Assembly: GCA_035621215.1 (NCBI GenBank)
Contig: CP141729.1
Span: 206,944 to 270,943, forward strand
Length of the DNA: 64,000 nucleotides
Origin: Oscillospiraceae bacterium MB08-C2-2
GTDB taxonomy: Bacteria; Bacillota; Clostridia; Oscillospirales; Ruminococcaceae
Direction: 5' to 3'
This document shows, piece by piece, positions 4,725 to 50,624 of this stretch. Positions within the stretch are counted from its first letter, which is position 1. Each line of letters opens with the position of its first letter. Below the pieces are notes generated by a model. That model made no database searches, was not told where the DNA came from, and saw only the letters and a program-made list of their open reading frames with translations. The position numbers and the translations under genes are program-made.

Positions 4725-6044
4725 CTATGCGGCGGGCGAGCCGCTCACAATATCATAGTTCCAGTCCTTGATGCCTCCCAAGTTATATACAGTCTCATAT
4801 CCCATGGATAAAGCTTCTTCCAAGGCGGTTTGAGCACGGACACCGGCGGCGCAGTAAAAGATGATTTCCTGGCTCTTATCGGGCACCAGAGAAGGCAATT
4901 TCTGGGAAATCTCGGCTACCGGAATGTGCAGACTTCCCGGTATATAGCCTTCTGCCCGCTCTTCTGCCGAGCGTACATCCACCAGAACAGCACCGTTTTC
5001 ATAATCATTGAGTGCCTGCTCGGAACCGATAGAGAATTGACGCACAGAGTTTTCATCCAATATTTTGAACTCGAAGTTTTTTCCCACCAATAGAACTTGG
5101 CTGTCTCCCATGGCGATACTGTTCCACTCGGAGCCGTCCGCTTCAGACATTTGGTGGCATACCGTGCATTCCGTGATGGTCAGCAGGCGGCCTCGATCAC
5201 ATACAATAAGCAACTGATCGCCCAAAAGGCCCACAGCGCGCATTTCCAGAGGCAGCTGTTCAGAGAACTCCTCGCCATTCACACTGGTAAGCGCTTTAAA
5301 AAACCAAACGTCGGCCGCATCCGTGAACATAATAAAAGGCTCCCCGGGATTATCCTCCATTTGGCCATAAATAAAGAGGCTGTCACCCAGACTGGAAAGG
5401 CCGGTGAAACTGCGGCGGTCATAATAGCCGTTATATGCCTCGTTGAAATTGATCGCTTTCCAGTTCTCGCCATCGGCAGAGGTGAACAGATCGGTTTTGC
5501 CGGTTATTGCCATCAGGCCATAAGAGTTGGAGGCAATGGCAATAATATCGTTATCGGTTTCCAGCGTTTTGCTCTGCCAGTTCTGCCCGTCCTGCGAGAT
5601 CCACAGGCGGCCCTTTTCGGCGGCTGCATAATACCGGCCATTGAATTCCGTTACTTGAAAAATGGTCCCGCTTTCATCTATATTTGCCTGTTGAAATGTT
5701 TTAAGATCTCGGCTGTAAAGTAAAGTGCCCTTTTCTCCGCAGATCAGGGTAAGCCCATTCTGGGAATGGATATCCAGCAGAGAGGCTTGGGTAGGCAGCG
5801 GAAGGGTTTTGCTCTTGCCATTTTGATCAATTTGATCCAAGCGGCCAGCTGTTCCGGCAGCCAGAAAATAATTTCCCAGATAGACGGACGAAGTATACCC
5901 GGCAGGCTTACCGGTTGAAAGTGTCTGTGCCTGCAAAGGCTGAAGATCAGGTGCAGTGGCAGCTTTAACTGTGCAGGATGGTAATAAAAAGAGAGCAAGT
6001 GTGACTGCTGCTAAATGCAGTATATTTTGCCTCGTTATTTTCAT
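4725..6044 (-). CDS. Lipoprotein with a BNR/Ycf48-like beta-propeller domain fused to a C-terminal rhodanese (sulfurtransferase-like) domain
   Basis: The likely start is MKITRQNILHLAAVTLALFLLPSC with a lipobox, and GGAG lies 7 nt upstream. The C-terminus reads ...VLVDVRSAEERAEGYIPGSLHIPV...IIFYCAAGVRAQ..., a rhodanese fold with a Cys loop. The middle holds W/G-rich repeats typical of beta-propellers. Confidence 0.55.
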   Translation of the reverse strand: MKITRQNILHLAAVTLALFLLPSCTVKAATAPDLQPLQAQTLSTGKPAGYTSSVYLGNYFLAAGTAGRLDQIDQNGKSKTLPLPTQASLLDIHSQNGLTLICGEKGTLLYSRDLKTFQQANIDESGTIFQVTEFNGRYYAAAEKGRLWISQDGQNWQSKTLETDNDIIAIASNSYGLMAITGKTDLFTSADGENWKAINFNEAYNGYYDRRSFTGLSSLGDSLFIYGQMEDNPGEPFIMFTDAADVWFFKALTSVNGEEFSEQLPLEMRAVGLLGDQLLIVCDRGRLLTITECTVCHQMSEADGSEWNSIAMGDSQVLLVGKNFEFKILDENSVRQFSIGSEQALNDYENGAVLVDVRSAEERAEGYIPGSLHIPVAEISQKLPSLVPDKSQEIIFYCAAGVRAQTALEEALSMGYETVYNLGGIKDWNYDIVSGSPAA

Positions 6045-6138
6045 TTTTTCATCTCCAGAGTTGTTAAGCATAGGTGAAAAAGACTTTTAAGGTATTTTAG
6101 ATTAGCTCTGCAAGAGCAATGATTTTCATAGAAACGCA

Positions 6139-6633
6139 TTATTCCTGTTTAGAGGGAATCTGTGCACTTTTGATCAGATGCAAAAGCAGCTGAACCAAGG
6201 CAACCACAGACAATACAATTATGATGATAGGAATTACACCCACCCTGCTAATGAGGAGAGAGAGATAACCCAATAAAGGAATGGCCACAAAAAGCTTGCC
6301 TTTTATATGATTGTAGTTAACTGGGGAGGGGTCCGGCGTGTTGTTGGCATCGCCCTGTGTGATGATGCTGTCTGCTGTGACTTCCAGCGCTCGATGCGTG
6401 ACAACTTCATTGCCGCCCGAAGCATAGAAGGTGATGATATCTCCTACAGCTATATTTTCTTTTTCTACTGGACGAACCACAATTAGAGATCCAACAGGTA
6501 AAGCCGGTTCCATGCTGCCTGTAAGCACTGTGAACTGTTCCCAGCCCAACAGCTGTGGGATGAGTAGTAAAGCTACCAAAAAGAAAGTTACCGATTGAAA
6601 TACAATCGAAAAAATTTGTAAAAATTTTTTCAT
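6139..6633 (-). CDS. sipW: Signal peptidase I of the archaeal/eukaryal type (SipW-like)
   Basis: The 164-aa product has an N-terminal TM segment and then the ...FTVLTGSMEPALPVGSLIVVRP... block that contains the SGSMEP-type catalytic Ser motif of S26B/SipW peptidases. A C-terminal TM segment follows. Confidence 0.75.
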   Translation of the reverse strand: MKKFLQIFSIVFQSVTFFLVALLLIPQLLGWEQFTVLTGSMEPALPVGSLIVVRPVEKENIAVGDIITFYASGGNEVVTHRALEVTADSIITQGDANNTPDPSPVNYNHIKGKLFVAIPLLGYLSLLISRVGVIPIIIIVLSVVALVQLLLHLIKSAQIPSKQE

Positions 6634-6738
6634 AGAGGCGTGGATCCCCTTTCGGATTCGAAATCACATTGTGAGTTGCTTCAATTATCAGAAAATATCA
6701 ATGCAGATGATGAAAGACGAGAATAGAGAAAACTAGTA

Positions 6739-6783
6739 CCAAGGTTGCCGGCGGGTTGCATAAGTTCCCGGCGGCAACCTTGG
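6739..6783 (-). terminator. GC-rich 17-bp-stem hairpin immediately downstream of the xylanase gene; likely an intrinsic terminator separating the xylanase from sipW
   Basis: The arms ccaaggttgccggcggg and cccggcggcaaccttgg pair with one mismatch around the loop ttgcataagtt. On the minus strand the hairpin is followed by a T-containing stretch. Confidence 0.5.
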
Positions 6784-6794
6784 ATTTTCTTAAA

Positions 6795-8936
6795 TTATGC
6801 GGTTACGCGAATGGTTACTTCATGGGTTATTCCATTGTTGGCAGTTGCACGGATAATGGCAAAGCCAGCTTTTATTGCAGTAACTGTGCCATCTTCATCA
6901 ACAGTAGCAACACCGGGATTCAGAGAAGTCCAAACGACATCCTGAACAGTGGCATCTTTGGGAAGAATGGCTGCGGTCAACTTCTCGCTCTTGTTGCGCT
7001 TGATCGTGGCAGGTGCATTGATAGCAATGCTTTCTACTTCAATGGTTTCGCCGCCACCATTTTTAACAAGTGCATCAATAGCGGACTGCAGGGATATGAC
7101 AGCTGCATCTACCTCGGACTGCGTGGCTTCTGCACGATCGGCAACAGCCTGAGCACTTTCGCGTGCAATCTGCAGGGCGGCCCAGCTATCGGCGGTATAG
7201 TCTGCCTCATTCAAAGCAGCAAGCCCTTGCAGTTTGCTGTTAAGAATGCTCTTGTCAGCGGGCTCGGTTGGGGTGGCTTTTTCCAGAGCTGCTGTAGCAG
7301 CAAGCAGGGTAGTGGTTGCATTCTTAACAGCGGTAACAGCTGCCATATCGTAGATCCGAACCTCTACCAGATTCGCTGCTGCGGTTTTGGAGCTTTCGTA
7401 GGCTGCCCAGCTTTCAGTAGTGTAGAGGGATTTCTGATCGTCGGCAGGGCCGGCAGCAATGGCTTGCTTCATCTTGTCACGGCTGGGAGCGCCAAGCACA
7501 GCGAAGAAAGACATTTTTTCTGCATTTCCGCTCAGGCCGCTCCACATGTGTGCGCCCTTGTTGCTGTTAAAGGTAGAACCATCGTTGGTGCCGTCCCACT
7601 GCATAACAGTGAAGTGATCTTTGTATTCAATCAAAAGATCCATCAGATCTGCGGCATAATCTGCCTGTTCCTTCTGGATATCCTCACGCATGGCTATGGT
7701 ATGAGCAGAGGTGGAGTTCCAGCCGTTCTGATTCAGACGGCCCCAGCCACTCTTACGAATAGTGGTAGCGTTGTTGACATCATAGGTATTGGTTTCAGCA
7801 GTATCACCATTGGGGACAGAGGGAAGTGAAGGATCGTAGTCAGGGTTCAGCATAAAGTCGCTGCGGATATCAGCCTCAGTAAAGGAGATCTCGTTGGCAA
7901 CGGTCAAACCCATATCCAGCTGCTTACGAAGTTGCTCGATGGAGGGGAACACAGAAGAGAGACGTCCCTGCATACCGTAACCATCAATGTTGCCAGCTTC
8001 GTAAATAGGTTTCAGCATTTTAACGGTCTGGCTGAGTTTGGGTTCATAAGGTTTGTTGCTGTCATGGAAATCGTTGTAATAAAGGGTCCAGTCTGCATCG
8101 TAATATTCAGACCATTTTCTGGCGGATTCAAATGCCTTGCGGATGTATTCGGATTCTGCAAACAATCTGGCATCCGGATCGTTATCCAGATCACGGCGGC
8201 GGAAGATTCCGCCCCATTGGCCGGACTGAGAGTCGTCCATATTACGGACCTGACCCGAATAGTCATCCAGACCTTCGTTTACAACGTCCCAAGAATAGAT
8301 GACGTCGTTGTATGAGGAATAACGCTCCATCATCAATTTGATGTAGTTATCCAAACGGGCAAGCATAGTCTCGCGGCTGGCCCAATCGGGATTACTGGAG
8401 TTATAAACGAACCCGTTGCAGAAAAAGTAGTTGGGCTGCTGGCCGCCGTGCCAAACAAGCACATGGGCACGAATCATTCTTTTTTCATTTTCGGGTACGG
8501 TTTGGTTGTAAGCGCGGATCGCATCCAGGGTATTCATAACGCCGGGTCTGTCAAGCAGCACAACTTTTTCGTTGGCTTCTTTCAGTGCGGCTGCCTTCTG
8601 CTCTGCAGAGAGAGAAGTGTCAGAATTAATTCTCTCAATAGCTGAAACATAAGTGTTGCGGGAAGGCTGTGTTCCCCAGTTGCCGCCGATCTGGCTATCC
8701 AGCTTCAGTTCGTTGGCGGGGCTGCTTCCTTTGTAATGGTAGAGGCGCTGATCGGTTCCTGTAGGCTGCTGGGCTGTATTGCCGTTTTTCCAGCCGCCAA
8801 AGGTGCCGAACATGAAATAATCCTCATATTCCTGCCACAAAGAAGGCAATGTAAGATCGACTGCAGAAGCAGTCATAGGGATACAGGAGACAGTCAGAAT
8901 AAGTGCCATAATGAATGTTAAAACTCTCTTTTTCAA
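6795..8936 (-). CDS. Secreted GH10 endo-1,4-beta-xylanase with a C-terminal Big_2 (bacterial Ig-like) domain
   Basis: A signal peptide MKKRVLTFIMALILTVSCIPMTASA is present. GH10 motifs found are WDVVNE (acid/base), ...ISFTEADIRS (nucleophile TEAD) and IDGYGMQGRL. The C-terminus ...ILPKDATVQDVVWTSLNPGVATVDEDGTVTAIKAGFAIIRATANNG... is Big_2-like. Confidence 0.85.
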   Translation of the reverse strand: MKKRVLTFIMALILTVSCIPMTASAVDLTLPSLWQEYEDYFMFGTFGGWKNGNTAQQPTGTDQRLYHYKGSSPANELKLDSQIGGNWGTQPSRNTYVSAIERINSDTSLSAEQKAAALKEANEKVVLLDRPGVMNTLDAIRAYNQTVPENEKRMIRAHVLVWHGGQQPNYFFCNGFVYNSSNPDWASRETMLARLDNYIKLMMERYSSYNDVIYSWDVVNEGLDDYSGQVRNMDDSQSGQWGGIFRRRDLDNDPDARLFAESEYIRKAFESARKWSEYYDADWTLYYNDFHDSNKPYEPKLSQTVKMLKPIYEAGNIDGYGMQGRLSSVFPSIEQLRKQLDMGLTVANEISFTEADIRSDFMLNPDYDPSLPSVPNGDTAETNTYDVNNATTIRKSGWGRLNQNGWNSTSAHTIAMREDIQKEQADYAADLMDLLIEYKDHFTVMQWDGTNDGSTFNSNKGAHMWSGLSGNAEKMSFFAVLGAPSRDKMKQAIAAGPADDQKSLYTTESWAAYESSKTAAANLVEVRIYDMAAVTAVKNATTTLLAATAALEKATPTEPADKSILNSKLQGLAALNEADYTADSWAALQIARESAQAVADRAEATQSEVDAAVISLQSAIDALVKNGGGETIEVESIAINAPATIKRNKSEKLTAAILPKDATVQDVVWTSLNPGVATVDEDGTVTAIKAGFAIIRATANNGITHEVTIRVTA

Positions 8937-8990
8937 CGATGCTCCTCCTTTAGTTATAGTCCAGTGGATGCGCCAAGATGGTTGGGTTTT

Positions 8991-9806
8991 CTATAGTCGC
9001 CTGTTATTCACCCCCTGGTTGAACCGTTTTTTTAATATTAAGGAAAGATTCCCTTGACGCCAAAACAGTGCTAATAAGGCAATAAGCCCTGACAACGCTA
9101 CCCATGCAGGGGAAATCATATGGCCCCTGAGCCCTGTGTTGGGAATAGAAGTCGGAACTTTATTGTCCAGTATTTCTATGGTGCCCAAGGGAACCGGCTG
9201 ATCCAGAATTGTAATTGTTGATAGAGTTGAACCCTTATCGGAGTCTCTGTCTGAATCATCTCTGTCGCCGCCGGAGCCTGTAAATACGGTGCAATAAAAA
9301 CCCCAATCGAGGGAGGCCAATACATTTTGTTGCTCATTTCCAATGTTAGTGGGTAATGTAACGGTTATTTCCAGAACAGACTGCTGCCAAGAACGCAGTG
9401 TTCCAAGCGGGATATACTCATGAATTGAACCAGAGTCTTTTCGACCGGAGGCAGGGCCTTCATAGAGCAGCTTGCCGGTTTCAACAACGGAACCGTTGGA
9501 GTTGACTTCGTGAAGGGTAATCTTCATTTGAAGTGCTTCCAACAATGCGAGAGAGCGGTTAGCATCGGCCGAATCGGTAAAATGCGAGGGGGTAGCTTTG
9601 AGGTAAAAAAGCAATTGGGATGTGCTTCGGTTTTGCAAAATGACGCTGCGGGTTTCTGAGCTGCCGGGGAGCATTCCCTCCAGTGAAAAAAGCTGGCGGT
9701 CTGCCTGCAATTGCTGAAGGCTGCCCTGATAGGTAACACTGGCCCAGACCTGCAGCGGCGAGCACACCAAAACAATCGCCAATGCAAGGCCAAACAACCT
9801 TTTCAA
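8991..9806 (-). CDS. Secreted TasA-like (camelysin-fold-like) protein with a C-terminal IPNTG-like sorting motif followed by a TM helix and basic tail, making it a putative cell-anchored subunit
   Basis: The start is MKRLFGLALAIVLVCSPLQVWA, a signal peptide. The core contains ...MLPGSSETRSVILQNRSTSQLLFYLK..., which resembles the L-PG...N.G...R block seen in the neighbouring TasA-like paralogs. The C-terminus reads ...TSIPNTGLRGHMISPAWVALSGLIALLALFWRQ...KKRF. Confidence 0.5.
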   Translation of the reverse strand: MKRLFGLALAIVLVCSPLQVWASVTYQGSLQQLQADRQLFSLEGMLPGSSETRSVILQNRSTSQLLFYLKATPSHFTDSADANRSLALLEALQMKITLHEVNSNGSVVETGKLLYEGPASGRKDSGSIHEYIPLGTLRSWQQSVLEITVTLPTNIGNEQQNVLASLDWGFYCTVFTGSGGDRDDSDRDSDKGSTLSTITILDQPVPLGTIEILDNKVPTSIPNTGLRGHMISPAWVALSGLIALLALFWRQGNLSLILKKRFNQGVNNRRL

Positions 9807-9909
9807 AATATTCCCCCTTTTTTAGAAAGCTGCATTTCAAGCTGTATAAATTGAGACTTTTCCCTTTGGGAGAAGCAGATGTCTGCCCCTTTACAAATGC
9901 AGTTTGGTG

Positions 9910-49870: not shown

Positions 49871-50440
49871 CTACTTGGAAAAATCCACAGTAGGCGCAGA
49901 TTGAGCTGATTGCTCGGCTTCAAAATAATCCATTTTGTCAAACCCAAACATTCCCGCCAACAGGTTGGAAGGGAATCTGCGGATGCGGCCGTTGTATTGC
50001 CGAACAGCCTCATTGTAGCGCTGGCGAGAAACCTTAATTCTATTTTCAGTGCCTTCCAGCTGGGTCTGTAAATCCAAGAAATTTTGGTTGGCTTTTAATT
50101 CTGGGTAATTTTCAACCACAACAAGCAGTCTTGAAAGAGCCGAGCTCAGTTCGGAATCGGCCTGGGCCACCTCCTGCATGCTGCCAGCGCCCATCAGCTT
50201 GGAGCGGGCATCGGCAATGCTTGTGTATATTTCTTCTTCATGGGTGGCAAAGCCCTTGACTGTTGCAACCAAATTGGGAATTAAATCATTGCGGCGCTGC
50301 AAATCAGCCTGCACATCAGCGAAGCTTTGCTGAACCGTTTCACTGGAAGCCACCATTCCATTGTAGGTTCCGGCCAGTGAAAACACGATCACTAAAACAA
50401 TTCCAATAATTACCAGAAGTATAATTGTACCTTTTTTCAT
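49871..50440 (-). CDS. lemA: LemA family protein
   Basis: MKKGTIILLVIIGIVLVIVFSLAGTYNGMVA...RRNDLIPNLV...ENYPELKAN... is LemA; it forms the typical lemA-TPM gene pair. Confidence 0.8.
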   Translation of the reverse strand: MKKGTIILLVIIGIVLVIVFSLAGTYNGMVASSETVQQSFADVQADLQRRNDLIPNLVATVKGFATHEEEIYTSIADARSKLMGAGSMQEVAQADSELSSALSRLLVVVENYPELKANQNFLDLQTQLEGTENRIKVSRQRYNEAVRQYNGRIRRFPSNLLAGMFGFDKMDYFEAEQSAQSAPTVDFSK

Positions 50441-50624
50441 ATTCATACCATCCTTTAACATAATCTGAAAAAACAAGCATTTAAAACGGGTAAAGCAACC
50501 TCATGCCGAGCCTTTGAAAATTGATTGCACGGCATGACCATAGAGCTGTTCGTCTTCTAATTTCACTTAATTATATAACTGACAATAGAGATACTTTGAC
50601 AGCGTTTTTAAATTGTTCAGGTGC

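What the first reader, a model, noticed from the sequence alone, without database searches (positions are those of the whole stretch)
8991..9806. TasA-like paralog with a C-terminal IPNTG-TM-KKRF sorting-signal-like tail, with no sortase in the window
The C-terminus ...TSIPNTGLRGHMISPAWVALSGLIALLALFWRQ...KKRF has the tripartite layout of a Gram-positive cell-wall sorting signal (an LPXTG-like pentapeptide, a hydrophobic stretch and a basic tail). It sits on a protein whose core resembles the neighbouring TasA-like proteins. A covalently wall-anchored subunit in a SipW-type system would be unusual. Its gene is followed after 55 bp, with no terminator, by the GH10 xylanase.
Basis: partly seen in the sequence, partly recalled or inferred. 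Interest (0 to 1): 0.6.

Follow-up and report, generated by a model that had tools for sequence, protein, structure and literature searches.

The report
Wall-anchor subunit of a TasA-like fibre
This gene encodes the predicted cell-wall anchor subunit of a TasA/BsaA-type surface fibre; the same anchor sits in the same operon position in hundreds of gut Clostridia species, so the sorting-signal tail is real but ordinary.

Summary
The ORF (8991-9806, minus strand, 271 aa) and its tail are real. The tail has IPNTG at residues 221-225, a hydrophobic helix at about 230-263 and K/R residues. No sortase is encoded in the 64 kb window.

The tail is a family trait. Of 146 remote homologues, 115 end in an xPxTG-type motif followed by a hydrophobic stretch and a basic tail. 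The motif's P and G are invariant while the linker before it is not.

The core is BsaA/TasA-type. This shows only at profile level (hhalign 98.4%, E 9e-15 against BsaA-like fibre subunits), not by pairwise BLAST against the neighbouring genes.

Related loci share the order SipW, several BsaA-like genes, a large VWA protein, a ~195 aa BsaA-like protein, then this anchor, often followed by a sortase. Anchors with xPxTG motifs, like this one, usually have no adjacent sortase (16 of 19 loci).

Two preprints already report LPXTG proteins and sortases beside TasA/BsaA genes, including C. perfringens bsaB.

So a wall-anchored subunit in a SipW system is normal rather than unusual. Whether this genome (Oscillospiraceae bacterium MB08-C2-2) encodes a sortase could not be tested here. 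Verdict: a new member of a known kind, of low to moderate interest.

The parts
8991..9806 (-). Anchor-subunit gene (271 aa; U6B65_00900). A BsaA/TasA-superfamily core with a C-terminal sortase-type sorting signal.
9741..9806 (-). Ordinary Sec signal peptide, aa 1-22 (MKRLFGLALAIVLVCSPLQVWA|SV). It is not the SipW-type GTxAxF motif.
   Evidence: Hydrophobic peak at aa 4-22. No TIGR04088 hit. The family consensus is AxA followed by VTYxG.
9282..9740 (-). Beta-sandwich (jelly-roll) core, aa 23-175. It carries the family motifs LF..(M)LPG....N.S and TLPxxIGNEQQN....DWGF.
9147..9281 (-). Low-complexity acidic Gly/Ser linker plus the upstream DQPVPLG motif (aa 176-220). This is the presumed wall-spanning spacer.
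   Evidence: pLDDT 50-65. Weak NF033073 'doubled motif LPXTG anchor' hit at aa 199-246, which 28 of 63 family members match with E down to 2e-23.
9132..9146 (-). IPNTG pentapeptide (aa 221-225), the candidate sortase cleavage site between T224 and G225.
   Evidence: P222 and G225 are invariant and T224 is conserved in at least 90% of the sequences in A3; G225 is also invariant in A1.
9060..9119 (-). Hydrophobic membrane-spanning segment, aa 230-249.
   Evidence: Kyte-Doolittle up to 2.08. AF2 helix 233-263.
8994..9059 (-). Long, interrupted basic tail, aa 250-271 (RQGNLSLILKKRFNQGVNNRRL).
   Evidence: This is longer than in most family members.
8937..8990 (-). 54-bp gap between the anchor gene and the GH10 gene, with no terminator-like hairpin.
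6795..8936 (-). GH10 xylanase with FIVAR and Big_2 domains. It sits between the anchor gene and sipW only in this lineage.
   Evidence: Pfam. In the syntenic locus L007 only a Big_2 piece is present, and it lies after sipW.
6139..6633 (-). SipW-type (archaeal-type) signal peptidase I.
   Evidence: TIGR02228, 92.3 bits against a cutoff of 51.85.
9910..10554 (-). BsaA-like subunit. Its real start is probably at 10395, giving 161 aa by the Logan gene call.
   Evidence: Major-subunit HMM E 6.9e-14 and anchor HMM E 2.8e-6. hhalign probability 62%. TIGR04090 weak hit.
10514..11098 (-). 194-aa BsaA-like minor subunit. Its position between the VWA gene and the anchor gene is conserved.
   Evidence: Major-subunit HMM E 9e-5. 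Counterparts of 194, 199, 211 and 193 aa occur in L002, L005, L006 and L007. The L002 counterpart hits TIGR04090 at 2.5e-5.
11123..13885 (-). 920-aa VWA-domain protein (BsaC-like; candidate adhesin), with an 18-bp (6-aa SSLPDE) tandem repeat at 13514-13708.
   Evidence: Pfam VWA 1.3e-13. Tandem repeats. Conserved in related loci.
13924..13950 (-). 12-bp G+C-rich hairpin followed by TTTCTT on the minus strand, just after the first TasA-like gene. It is a candidate partial terminator.
13959..14789 (-). TasA/BsaA-like protein with a SipW-type signal (…ASGTTYAWFTA). Its real start is probably M38, at 14678.
   Evidence: TIGR04090 E 5e-4 and TIGR04088 E 0.024, both below cutoff. Motifs read directly from the sequence.

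Best explanation
The gene encodes the base (anchor) subunit of a TasA/BsaA-type surface fibre.

**Proposed sequence of events.**
1. The protein is exported by an ordinary Sec signal peptide.
2. It folds into a TasA-like beta-sandwich.
3. It is held in the membrane by its C-terminal hydrophobic helix and basic tail.
4. A sortase encoded elsewhere in the genome then cuts IPNT|G and joins Thr224 to peptidoglycan. This step is inferred.
5. The acidic Gly/Ser linker and the VPLG segment span the wall.
6. The TasA-like core joins the fibre by donor-strand complementation and so tethers it to the cell. This step is also inferred.

The fibre would be built from the neighbouring SipW-processed BsaA-like subunits, with the VWA protein as a likely adhesin.

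**Shown here:** the ORF, the tail layout, conservation of the tail across the family, homology of the core to BsaA-like subunits, the conserved operon position, and frequent dedicated sortases in related loci.

**Inferred:** sortase cleavage in this organism, and the donor-strand link to the fibre.
For: - **The tail is a family trait.** 115 of 146 representatives at 50% identity end in a motif, a hydrophobic stretch and a basic tail. The motif's P and G are invariant and T is nearly so, while the preceding linker is unalignable. The 39-43% identical syntenic orthologue (39% by tblastn, 43% in alignment A3) keeps GT(I/V)EIL..(V/L)P(T/A)S(I/L)P(N/D)(T/S)G.
- **Curated sortase-signal models match the family.** NF033073 matches 28 of 63 members (best 2e-23), NF053819 matches 18 and TIGR01167 matches 12.
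- **Dedicated sortases are common.** A class B sortase (TIGR03064) lies directly after the anchor gene in L002, L006, L012 and L015. Another sortase class overlaps the anchor gene by 7 nt in 39 of 44 LIQTGQ-type loci.
- **The operon order is conserved.** SipW, BsaA-like genes, VWA, a ~195 aa protein, then the anchor.
- **Literature.** C. perfringens strains carry a bsaB-like gene with LPXTG next to srtB, and AF3 predicts that an LPXTG protein forms donor-strand oligomers with a fibril subunit.
Against: - No sortase is encoded in the window or in the 10 kb downstream of the syntenic orthologue. Whether the genome encodes one is unknown.
- The target itself fails the curated cutoffs. NF033073 scores 17 bits against 48, and there is no TIGR01167 hit.
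- The tail is unusually long and interrupted, and the residue after G is Leu rather than the Asp, Glu or Gly seen in most family members.
- The orthologue has LPDSG (T to S), which may indicate relaxed constraint.
- In C. perfringens strain 13, BsaA polymers are membrane-anchored rather than wall-anchored, and deleting srtB has no phenotype.
- No one has shown experimentally that any member of this family is a sortase substrate or a fibre anchor.
Confidence: 0.6

Rival explanations
1. In this lineage the tail is only a C-terminal membrane anchor. The protein stays in the membrane uncleaved, and the xPxTG motif is an inherited relic, because no sortase acts on it.
For: - No sortase lies in the window or next to the orthologue.
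- The target scores below the curated LPXTG-model cutoffs.
- The tail is long and interrupted, and AF2 predicts a 31-residue helix.
- The orthologue's motif has drifted to LPDSG.
- BsaA polymers of C. perfringens strain 13 are membrane-anchored.
Against: - The P and G of the motif and the flanking GT(I/V)EIL segment are conserved between the 39-43% identical orthologues, although the linker has diverged completely.
- 16 of 19 xPxTG-type anchors lack an adjacent sortase yet keep canonical motifs, which suggests a sortase encoded elsewhere is the norm.
- From general knowledge, most Clostridia encode at least one sortase.
Confidence: 0.25
2. It is a sortase-polymerised pilin. IPNTG-type signals are typical of class C sortase substrates, so subunits would be joined covalently by a pilin sortase rather than by donor-strand exchange.
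For: - From memory, IPNTG is the signal of B. cereus BcpB and of some streptococcal pilins.
- The cluster contains a VWA protein, as sortase pili often do.
- The second sortase class in related loci scores nearest to class C.
Against: - No Cna-B, SpaA or pilin-type domain hit.
- The fold is a TasA-like jelly-roll.
- The other cluster proteins lack sorting signals.
- No class C sortase is present in the window.
- The related sortases fall below the class C cutoff.
Confidence: 0.03
3. The tripartite tail is a chance resemblance on an unrelated secreted protein.
For: Only that the target alone scores weakly against the curated models.
Against: Family-wide conservation, the conserved operon position, and adjacent sortases in related loci.
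Confidence: 0.02

Closest known systems
Clostridium perfringens Bsa system: sipW-bsaA-bsaB-bsaC with adjacent srtB. In ATCC 13124 and most strains a bsaB-like gene carries LPXTG (PMC7395162; PMC11580942).
   Same: - A SipW-type peptidase.
- Several BsaA/TasA-like proteins.
- A VWA protein (BsaC).
- One TasA-like protein ending in an LPXTG-type signal.
- The published proposal that this protein anchors the fibre to peptidoglycan.
   Different: - No adjacent srtB here.
- sipW lies at the end of the cluster rather than the start, and is separated from the anchor gene by a GH10 xylanase.
- There are two extra small BsaA-like genes.
- The motif is IPNTG with a long tail.
Bacillus subtilis TasA / TapA / SipW fibres (PDB 5OF1, 8AUR).
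   Same: A jelly-roll subunit fold, with shared motifs (NLKPGD...N.GS and NKYQG...F.F). A dedicated SipW peptidase. Fibre assembly by donor-strand exchange.
   Different: - From established knowledge, TasA fibres are tethered through TapA and not through a sortase substrate, and no TasA-family protein in B. subtilis carries a sorting signal.
- The target's own sequence does not reach Pfam PF12389 or NCBIfam TasA/BsaA models.
- The target's signal peptide is not the SipW-type.
LPXTG anchor proteins in bacterial AbpX / TasA-like clusters, for example Clostridium amylolyticum A0A1M6GRE1 (bioRxiv 10.64898/2026.01.04.697558).
   Same: An LPXTG-type protein encoded beside TasA-superfamily fibril genes and sortases, and predicted by AF3 to join the fibril by donor-strand complementation.
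   Different: The fibril family is different (AbpX), and the cluster has a different, 10-TM signal peptidase. Homology to the target was not tested.
Sortase-assembled Gram-positive pili (a base pilin plus a VWA tip adhesin; class C sortases).
   Same: The overall logic is the same: a tip adhesin with a VWA domain, a shaft, and a base subunit linked to the wall through an xPxTG signal.
   Different: The shaft subunits here have no sorting signals and have TasA-like rather than Cna/Ig folds. Polymerisation is presumably non-covalent or isopeptide-locked donor-strand exchange, not sortase transpeptidation.

Membership tests
Sortase substrate (LPXTG-type cell-wall sorting signal) | An xPxTG-type pentapeptide near the C-terminus | tested here: met
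   IPNTG at aa 221-225, with 46 residues following.
Sortase substrate (LPXTG-type cell-wall sorting signal) | A hydrophobic segment followed by a positively charged tail | tested here: met
   aa 230-249, Kyte-Doolittle up to 2.08. AF2 helix 233-263. R250, K259, K260, R261, R269, R270. The tail is longer than the family median.
Sortase substrate (LPXTG-type cell-wall sorting signal) | An N-terminal secretion signal | tested here: met
   Hydrophobic aa 4-22 ending VWA|S. This rests on inspection and hydropathy only; no dedicated predictor was available.
Sortase substrate (LPXTG-type cell-wall sorting signal) | Score above the curated cutoff of an LPXTG-anchor model (TIGR01167 or NF033073) | tested here: not met
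   NF033073 scores 17 bits against a cutoff of 48, and TIGR01167 gives no hit at E<=0.1. Among homologues, 28 of 63 match NF033073 and 12 of 63 match TIGR01167 at E<=0.01.
Sortase substrate (LPXTG-type cell-wall sorting signal) | Motif conserved in homologues | tested here: met
   P222 and G225 invariant and T224 >=90% conserved (A3; G225 also invariant in A1). 115 of 146 representatives have a full signal.
Sortase substrate (LPXTG-type cell-wall sorting signal) | A cognate sortase encoded in the same genome | not testable with these tools
   None in the 64 kb window. The rest of CP141729.1 and CP141730.1 could not be read, and the plasmid is not in PLSDB.
Sortase substrate (LPXTG-type cell-wall sorting signal) | Cleavage after Thr and amide linkage to peptidoglycan | not testable with these tools
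   Needs cell fractionation and mass spectrometry.
TasA/BsaA (camelysin, PF12389 / TIGR04090) superfamily | The target's own sequence matches the curated family models | tested here: not met
   The target has no Pfam hit, and its only NCBIfam hit is the weak NF033073 sorting-signal match - no TasA/BsaA-family model. Four of 63 homologues hit PF12389, best 8e-5.
TasA/BsaA (camelysin, PF12389 / TIGR04090) superfamily | Profile-level homology to bona fide BsaA-family subunits | tested here: met
   hhalign of A1 against 49 BsaA-like subunits gives 98.4%, E 8.9e-15, 164 columns. Of four such subunits scanned, three hit both TIGR04090 and TIGR04088 and one reaches the TIGR04090 cutoff (62.5 bits against 60); a fourth, the L002 194-aa minor subunit, hits TIGR04090 only. 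The anchor HMM hits them at E<1e-5.
TasA/BsaA (camelysin, PF12389 / TIGR04090) superfamily | A TasA-like jelly-roll fold | tested here: inconclusive
TasA/BsaA (camelysin, PF12389 / TIGR04090) superfamily | A SipW-dependent-type signal peptide (TIGR04088) | tested here: not met
   No hit. The N-terminus is an ordinary AxA-type signal.
TasA/BsaA (camelysin, PF12389 / TIGR04090) superfamily | Encoded in a cluster with a SipW-type peptidase | tested here: met
   SipW at 6139-6633. SipW is also present in most related loci.
TasA/BsaA (camelysin, PF12389 / TIGR04090) superfamily | Assembly by donor-strand exchange | not testable with these tools
C. perfringens-type bsa operon | sipW, a BsaA-like gene, an LPXTG-bearing BsaB-like gene and a VWA (BsaC) gene together | tested here: met
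   All four kinds are present at 6139-14789 on the minus strand.
C. perfringens-type bsa operon | An adjacent class B sortase | tested here: not met
   None in the window. Present in L002, L006, L012 and L015.
Sortase-polymerised pilin | A Cna-B / SpaA-type Ig fold, a pilin motif and an adjacent class C sortase | tested here: not met
   No such domain hits, a jelly-roll model and no sortase.

The most novel reading that the evidence does not exclude
In this organism the sortase-anchored, VWA-bearing TasA-like fibre may be wired into a xylan-utilisation locus. A GH10 xylanase sits inside the operon, between the anchor gene and sipW, with no terminator. A GH3 enzyme (its L007 orthologue carries a CBM9 module), a ChvE/xylose-type binding protein and a LacI regulator flank the cluster. 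The fibre could therefore be a substrate-adhesion organelle co-expressed with xylanase, a non-cellulosomal way of holding a gut Clostridium onto plant fibre.

A lower-probability alternative: the genome has no sortase, and the conserved xPxTG motif is processed by something else.
Probability: 0.15. Interest if true: 0.55.

Novelty: new member of a known kind. Interest (0 to 1): 0.3.

Why it matters
TasA/BsaA fibres are major biofilm and surface structures of Firmicutes, and how they are held on the cell is poorly understood outside B. subtilis.

This locus belongs to a very widespread, conserved operon type of gut Clostridia. The operon type combines a donor-strand fibre, a VWA protein, a dedicated anchor subunit and often a dedicated sortase. 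Nobody has yet shown experimentally that the anchor is a sortase substrate.

MB08-C2-2 is a cultured isolate with a complete genome, so it could serve to test this. The finding itself adds one more example and does not reveal a new principle.

Tried and rejected
- **Pairwise BLASTP** of the target against the three neighbouring TasA-like ORFs gave nothing significant. Profiles were needed.
- **The word-indexed protein search** with the single sequence returned only the protein itself. Exhaustive phmmer was needed.
A subfamily alignment, A2, worked, but it samples relatives only about 25% identical to the target.
- **My first sortase regex** (T[LVI]xTC) would have missed class B sortases (xSTC). 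I repeated the check with a looser regex, tblastn and two HMMs.
- **Weak sortase-like hits** at 15203-16345 and 49871-50476 turned out to be a ChvE sugar-binding protein and a LemA/MamQ-like protein.
- **Reading the strain's plasmid** from PLSDB to look for a sortase failed, because the record is not held.
- **A third large protein search with a sortase query** was considered and not run. The output is the best 120 hits of many thousands of sortases, so the strain's own sortase would almost certainly not have been listed.
- **Looking for other sorting-signal proteins.** I checked whether the large GH3 neighbour carries a sorting signal, which would imply an active sortase. Its orthologue ends in a CBM9 module with no signal.
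- **The sortase-polymerised pilin reading** was considered and rejected, for lack of a pilin fold, pilin domains or a class C sortase.

Full report
**Source.** The target protein is identical to hypothetical protein U6B65_00900 of Oscillospiraceae bacterium MB08-C2-2. This is a cultured isolate from black soldier fly larval faeces with a complete genome (CP141729.1 plus plasmid CP141730.1). It is a deep lineage, with 16S identity of 91.8% to Merdimmobilis hominis (PMC12697180).

**Observation.** The ORF at 8991..9806 on the minus strand is real.
- It is 271 aa with a TTG start and a GGGGG ribosome-binding site. Independent gene calls agree.
- The C-terminus reads ...DQPVPLGTIEILDNKVPTS-IPNTG-LRGHM-ISPAWVALSGLIALLALFW-RQGNLSLILKKRFNQGVNNRRL.
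- The pentapeptide lies at aa 221-225. The hydrophobic maximum is at 230-248 (Kyte-Doolittle 2.08). Six K/R residues follow.
- AlphaFold2, using a 63-sequence alignment, gives a confident beta-sandwich at aa 22-175 (pLDDT about 90), a disordered linker at 176-230 and a helix at 233-263.
- The gap to the GH10 gene is 54 bp, with no terminator-like site on the coding strand.
- No sortase is encoded anywhere in the window. This rests on motif scans, tblastn with three sortases, and two sortase HMMs against 163 ORFs. The two weak hits are a ChvE-type sugar-binding protein and a LemA-like protein.

**Is the tail more than chance?** Yes.
- The word-indexed search found only the protein itself. Exhaustive phmmer against 1.84 billion representatives found 146 relatives.
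- Of these, 115 end in an xPxTG-type motif, a hydrophobic stretch and a basic tail. Eighty-eight have strict xPxTG, most often LPKTG, LPQTG, SPKTG or PPKTG, and one other has IPNTG. Most of the rest are truncated or have degenerate variants.
- In the alignments the motif's P and G are invariant and T is nearly so, although the linker before it cannot be aligned.
- Many members also carry the upstream (D/E)xVPL(A/G) motif seen in the target.
- 28 of 63 members match NCBIfam NF033073 ('doubled motif LPXTG anchor', best 2e-23), 18 match NF053819 and 12 match TIGR01167.
- The target itself scores only 17 bits on NF033073 (cutoff 48). It has an unusually long post-motif region of 46 residues, against a median of 34.

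**What is the core?** It is BsaA/TasA-type, but this shows only at profile level.
- Pairwise BLASTP against the three neighbouring TasA-like ORFs is not significant.
- The family profile hits only TasA in the PDB, weakly, and on the hallmark motifs.
- Four of 63 members hit Pfam PF12389.
- The anchor HMM hits window ORF 9910-10554 at E 2.8e-6.
- hhalign between the anchor-family alignment and an alignment of 49 BsaA-like subunits from related loci gives 98.4% probability, E 8.9e-15, over 164 columns. Of four such subunits scanned, three hit both TIGR04090 (BsaA family) and TIGR04088 (SipW-type signal), the best scoring 62.5 bits against a cutoff of 60; the fourth, the L002 194-aa minor subunit, hits TIGR04090 only.
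- Unlike its neighbours, the anchor has an ordinary AxA signal peptide and not the SipW-type GTxAxF motif.

**Genomic context elsewhere.** Homologue loci share one architecture: SipW, three or four small BsaA-like genes, a 1000-1250 aa VWA protein, a ~195-210 aa BsaA-like protein, and then the anchor.
- The anchor is followed directly by a class B sortase in L002 and L006, but not in L005.
- A scan of GTDB species representatives with one subfamily alignment found 519 loci, of which 80 were fetched.
- Anchors ending ...TITNTxxLIQTGQLNWP have a small sortase overlapping the anchor gene by 7 nt in 39 of 44 cases. That sortase hits TIGR01076 above cutoff and is nearest to class C, though below the class cutoffs.
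- Anchors with xPxTG motifs have an adjacent class B sortase in 3 of 19 cases and none within the locus in 16 of 19.
- So a missing neighbouring sortase is typical for the motif class to which the target belongs.

**The closest relative.** P0002 (locus L007) is 39-43% identical to the target, depending on the alignment.
- Its locus is syntenic to the window. Protein identities are VWA 54%, the 194-aa protein 55%, the 214-aa protein 45%, SipW 68% and the rhodanese protein 38%.
- Its motif is LPDSG, and no sortase lies within the 10 kb downstream.
- It lacks the GH10 gene between the anchor and sipW. Only a Big_2 fragment similar to the GH10 C-terminus lies after sipW.
- The GH10 position is therefore lineage-specific.

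**Literature.**
- In C. perfringens the sipW-bsaA-bsaB-bsaC(VWA) operon lies next to srtB. In ATCC 13124 and most strains a bsaB-like gene carries LPXTG, and anchoring through SrtB is proposed but called speculative.
- Deleting srtB does not affect BsaA polymers in strain 13 (PMC7395162).
- A 2026 preprint notes LPXTG anchors and sortases in bacterial AbpX clusters, and reports an AF3 prediction that the LPXTG protein forms donor-strand oligomers with the fibril subunit.
- The concept is therefore known but not experimentally established.

**Mechanism proposed.**
1. Sec export and signal-peptide removal.
2. Retention in the membrane by the C-terminal helix and basic tail.
3. Sortase cleavage of IPNT|G and attachment of T224 to peptidoglycan. 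This is inferred and depends on a sortase encoded elsewhere.
4. The TasA-like core joins the SipW-processed fibre by donor-strand complementation and tethers it, with the VWA protein as a probable adhesin. This is inferred from family homology, operon conservation and the published AF3 prediction.

The main rival is that in this lineage the tail works only as a membrane anchor. I give that rival 0.25.

**Verdict.** The finding is a new member of a known, widespread but experimentally unproven kind. Interest is 0.3.

Noticed in passing
window 13924-13950 (minus strand), between 13959-14789 and 11123-13885: A perfect 12-bp G+C-rich hairpin (GAACCCCCGCCC-GGC-GGGCGGGGGTTC) followed by TTTCTT lies directly after the first TasA-like gene. 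It looks like a partial terminator that would give more transcript of that subunit than of the downstream VWA, minor-subunit and anchor genes, as in many pilus operons.
   Followed up: partly
window 6795-8936 compared with L007 4916-7234: The GH10 xylanase (with FIVAR and Big_2 domains) lies between the anchor gene and sipW only in this genome. In the syntenic relative, sipW follows the anchor directly, and only a 194-aa Big_2 protein similar to the GH10 C-terminus lies after sipW. The whole fibre cluster is embedded among xylan and sugar genes: a GH3 enzyme whose L007 orthologue carries CBM9, a ChvE-like binding protein at 15203-16345 and a LacI regulator at 16837-17901.
   Followed up: partly
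L016, L018, L024, L026, L028-L036 and others (about 44 of 80 genome loci), around locus positions 10001-11950: A distinct anchor subclass of about 410 aa has an extra domain ending ...VTITNT and the invariant signal LIQTGQLNWP, a hydrophobic stretch and KKK. It is always followed by a small (190-235 aa) sortase whose gene overlaps the anchor gene by 7 nt. This motif-sortase pair fits no curated sortase class cutoff; it is nearest to class C, at 50 bits against a cutoff of 160.
   Followed up: partly
window 13514-13708 (inside the VWA gene 11123-13885): An 18-bp tandem repeat of 10.8 copies (91% matches) encodes SSLPDE repeats just after the signal peptide of the VWA protein. It could be a length-variable stalk.
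   Followed up: no
proteins P0030, P0048, P0057, P0099, P0100, P0144: A subset of homologues has, in place of the sorting signal, a longer C-terminal region with two hydrophobic segments and an acidic end (...RWTPLI...). This may be an alternative, sortase-independent membrane anchor on the same core.
   Followed up: no
window 9910-10554 and 10514-11098: The longest ORF for the 214-aa protein overlaps the upstream 194-aa gene by 41 nt and starts with a non-signal-like sequence. The Logan gene call starts at 10395 (161 aa, LKPRLPFLPSIIFVSLILALSV...), which is probably the true start.
   Followed up: partly
window 4725-6071 and L007 7353-8702: A 448-aa lipoprotein-like protein, with a beta-propeller or Sortilin/BNR-like region and a C-terminal rhodanese domain, is conserved next to sipW in both syntenic genomes. 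Its relation to the fibre cluster is unknown.
   Followed up: no
L027, L037, L074 (MAGs labelled Candidatus Saccharibacteria): Anchor homologues in these MAGs end in KPKPLPxN..TLDNI followed by a hydrophobic stretch, with no TG motif. The taxon label may reflect mis-binning, or the tails may be a different signal.
   Followed up: no
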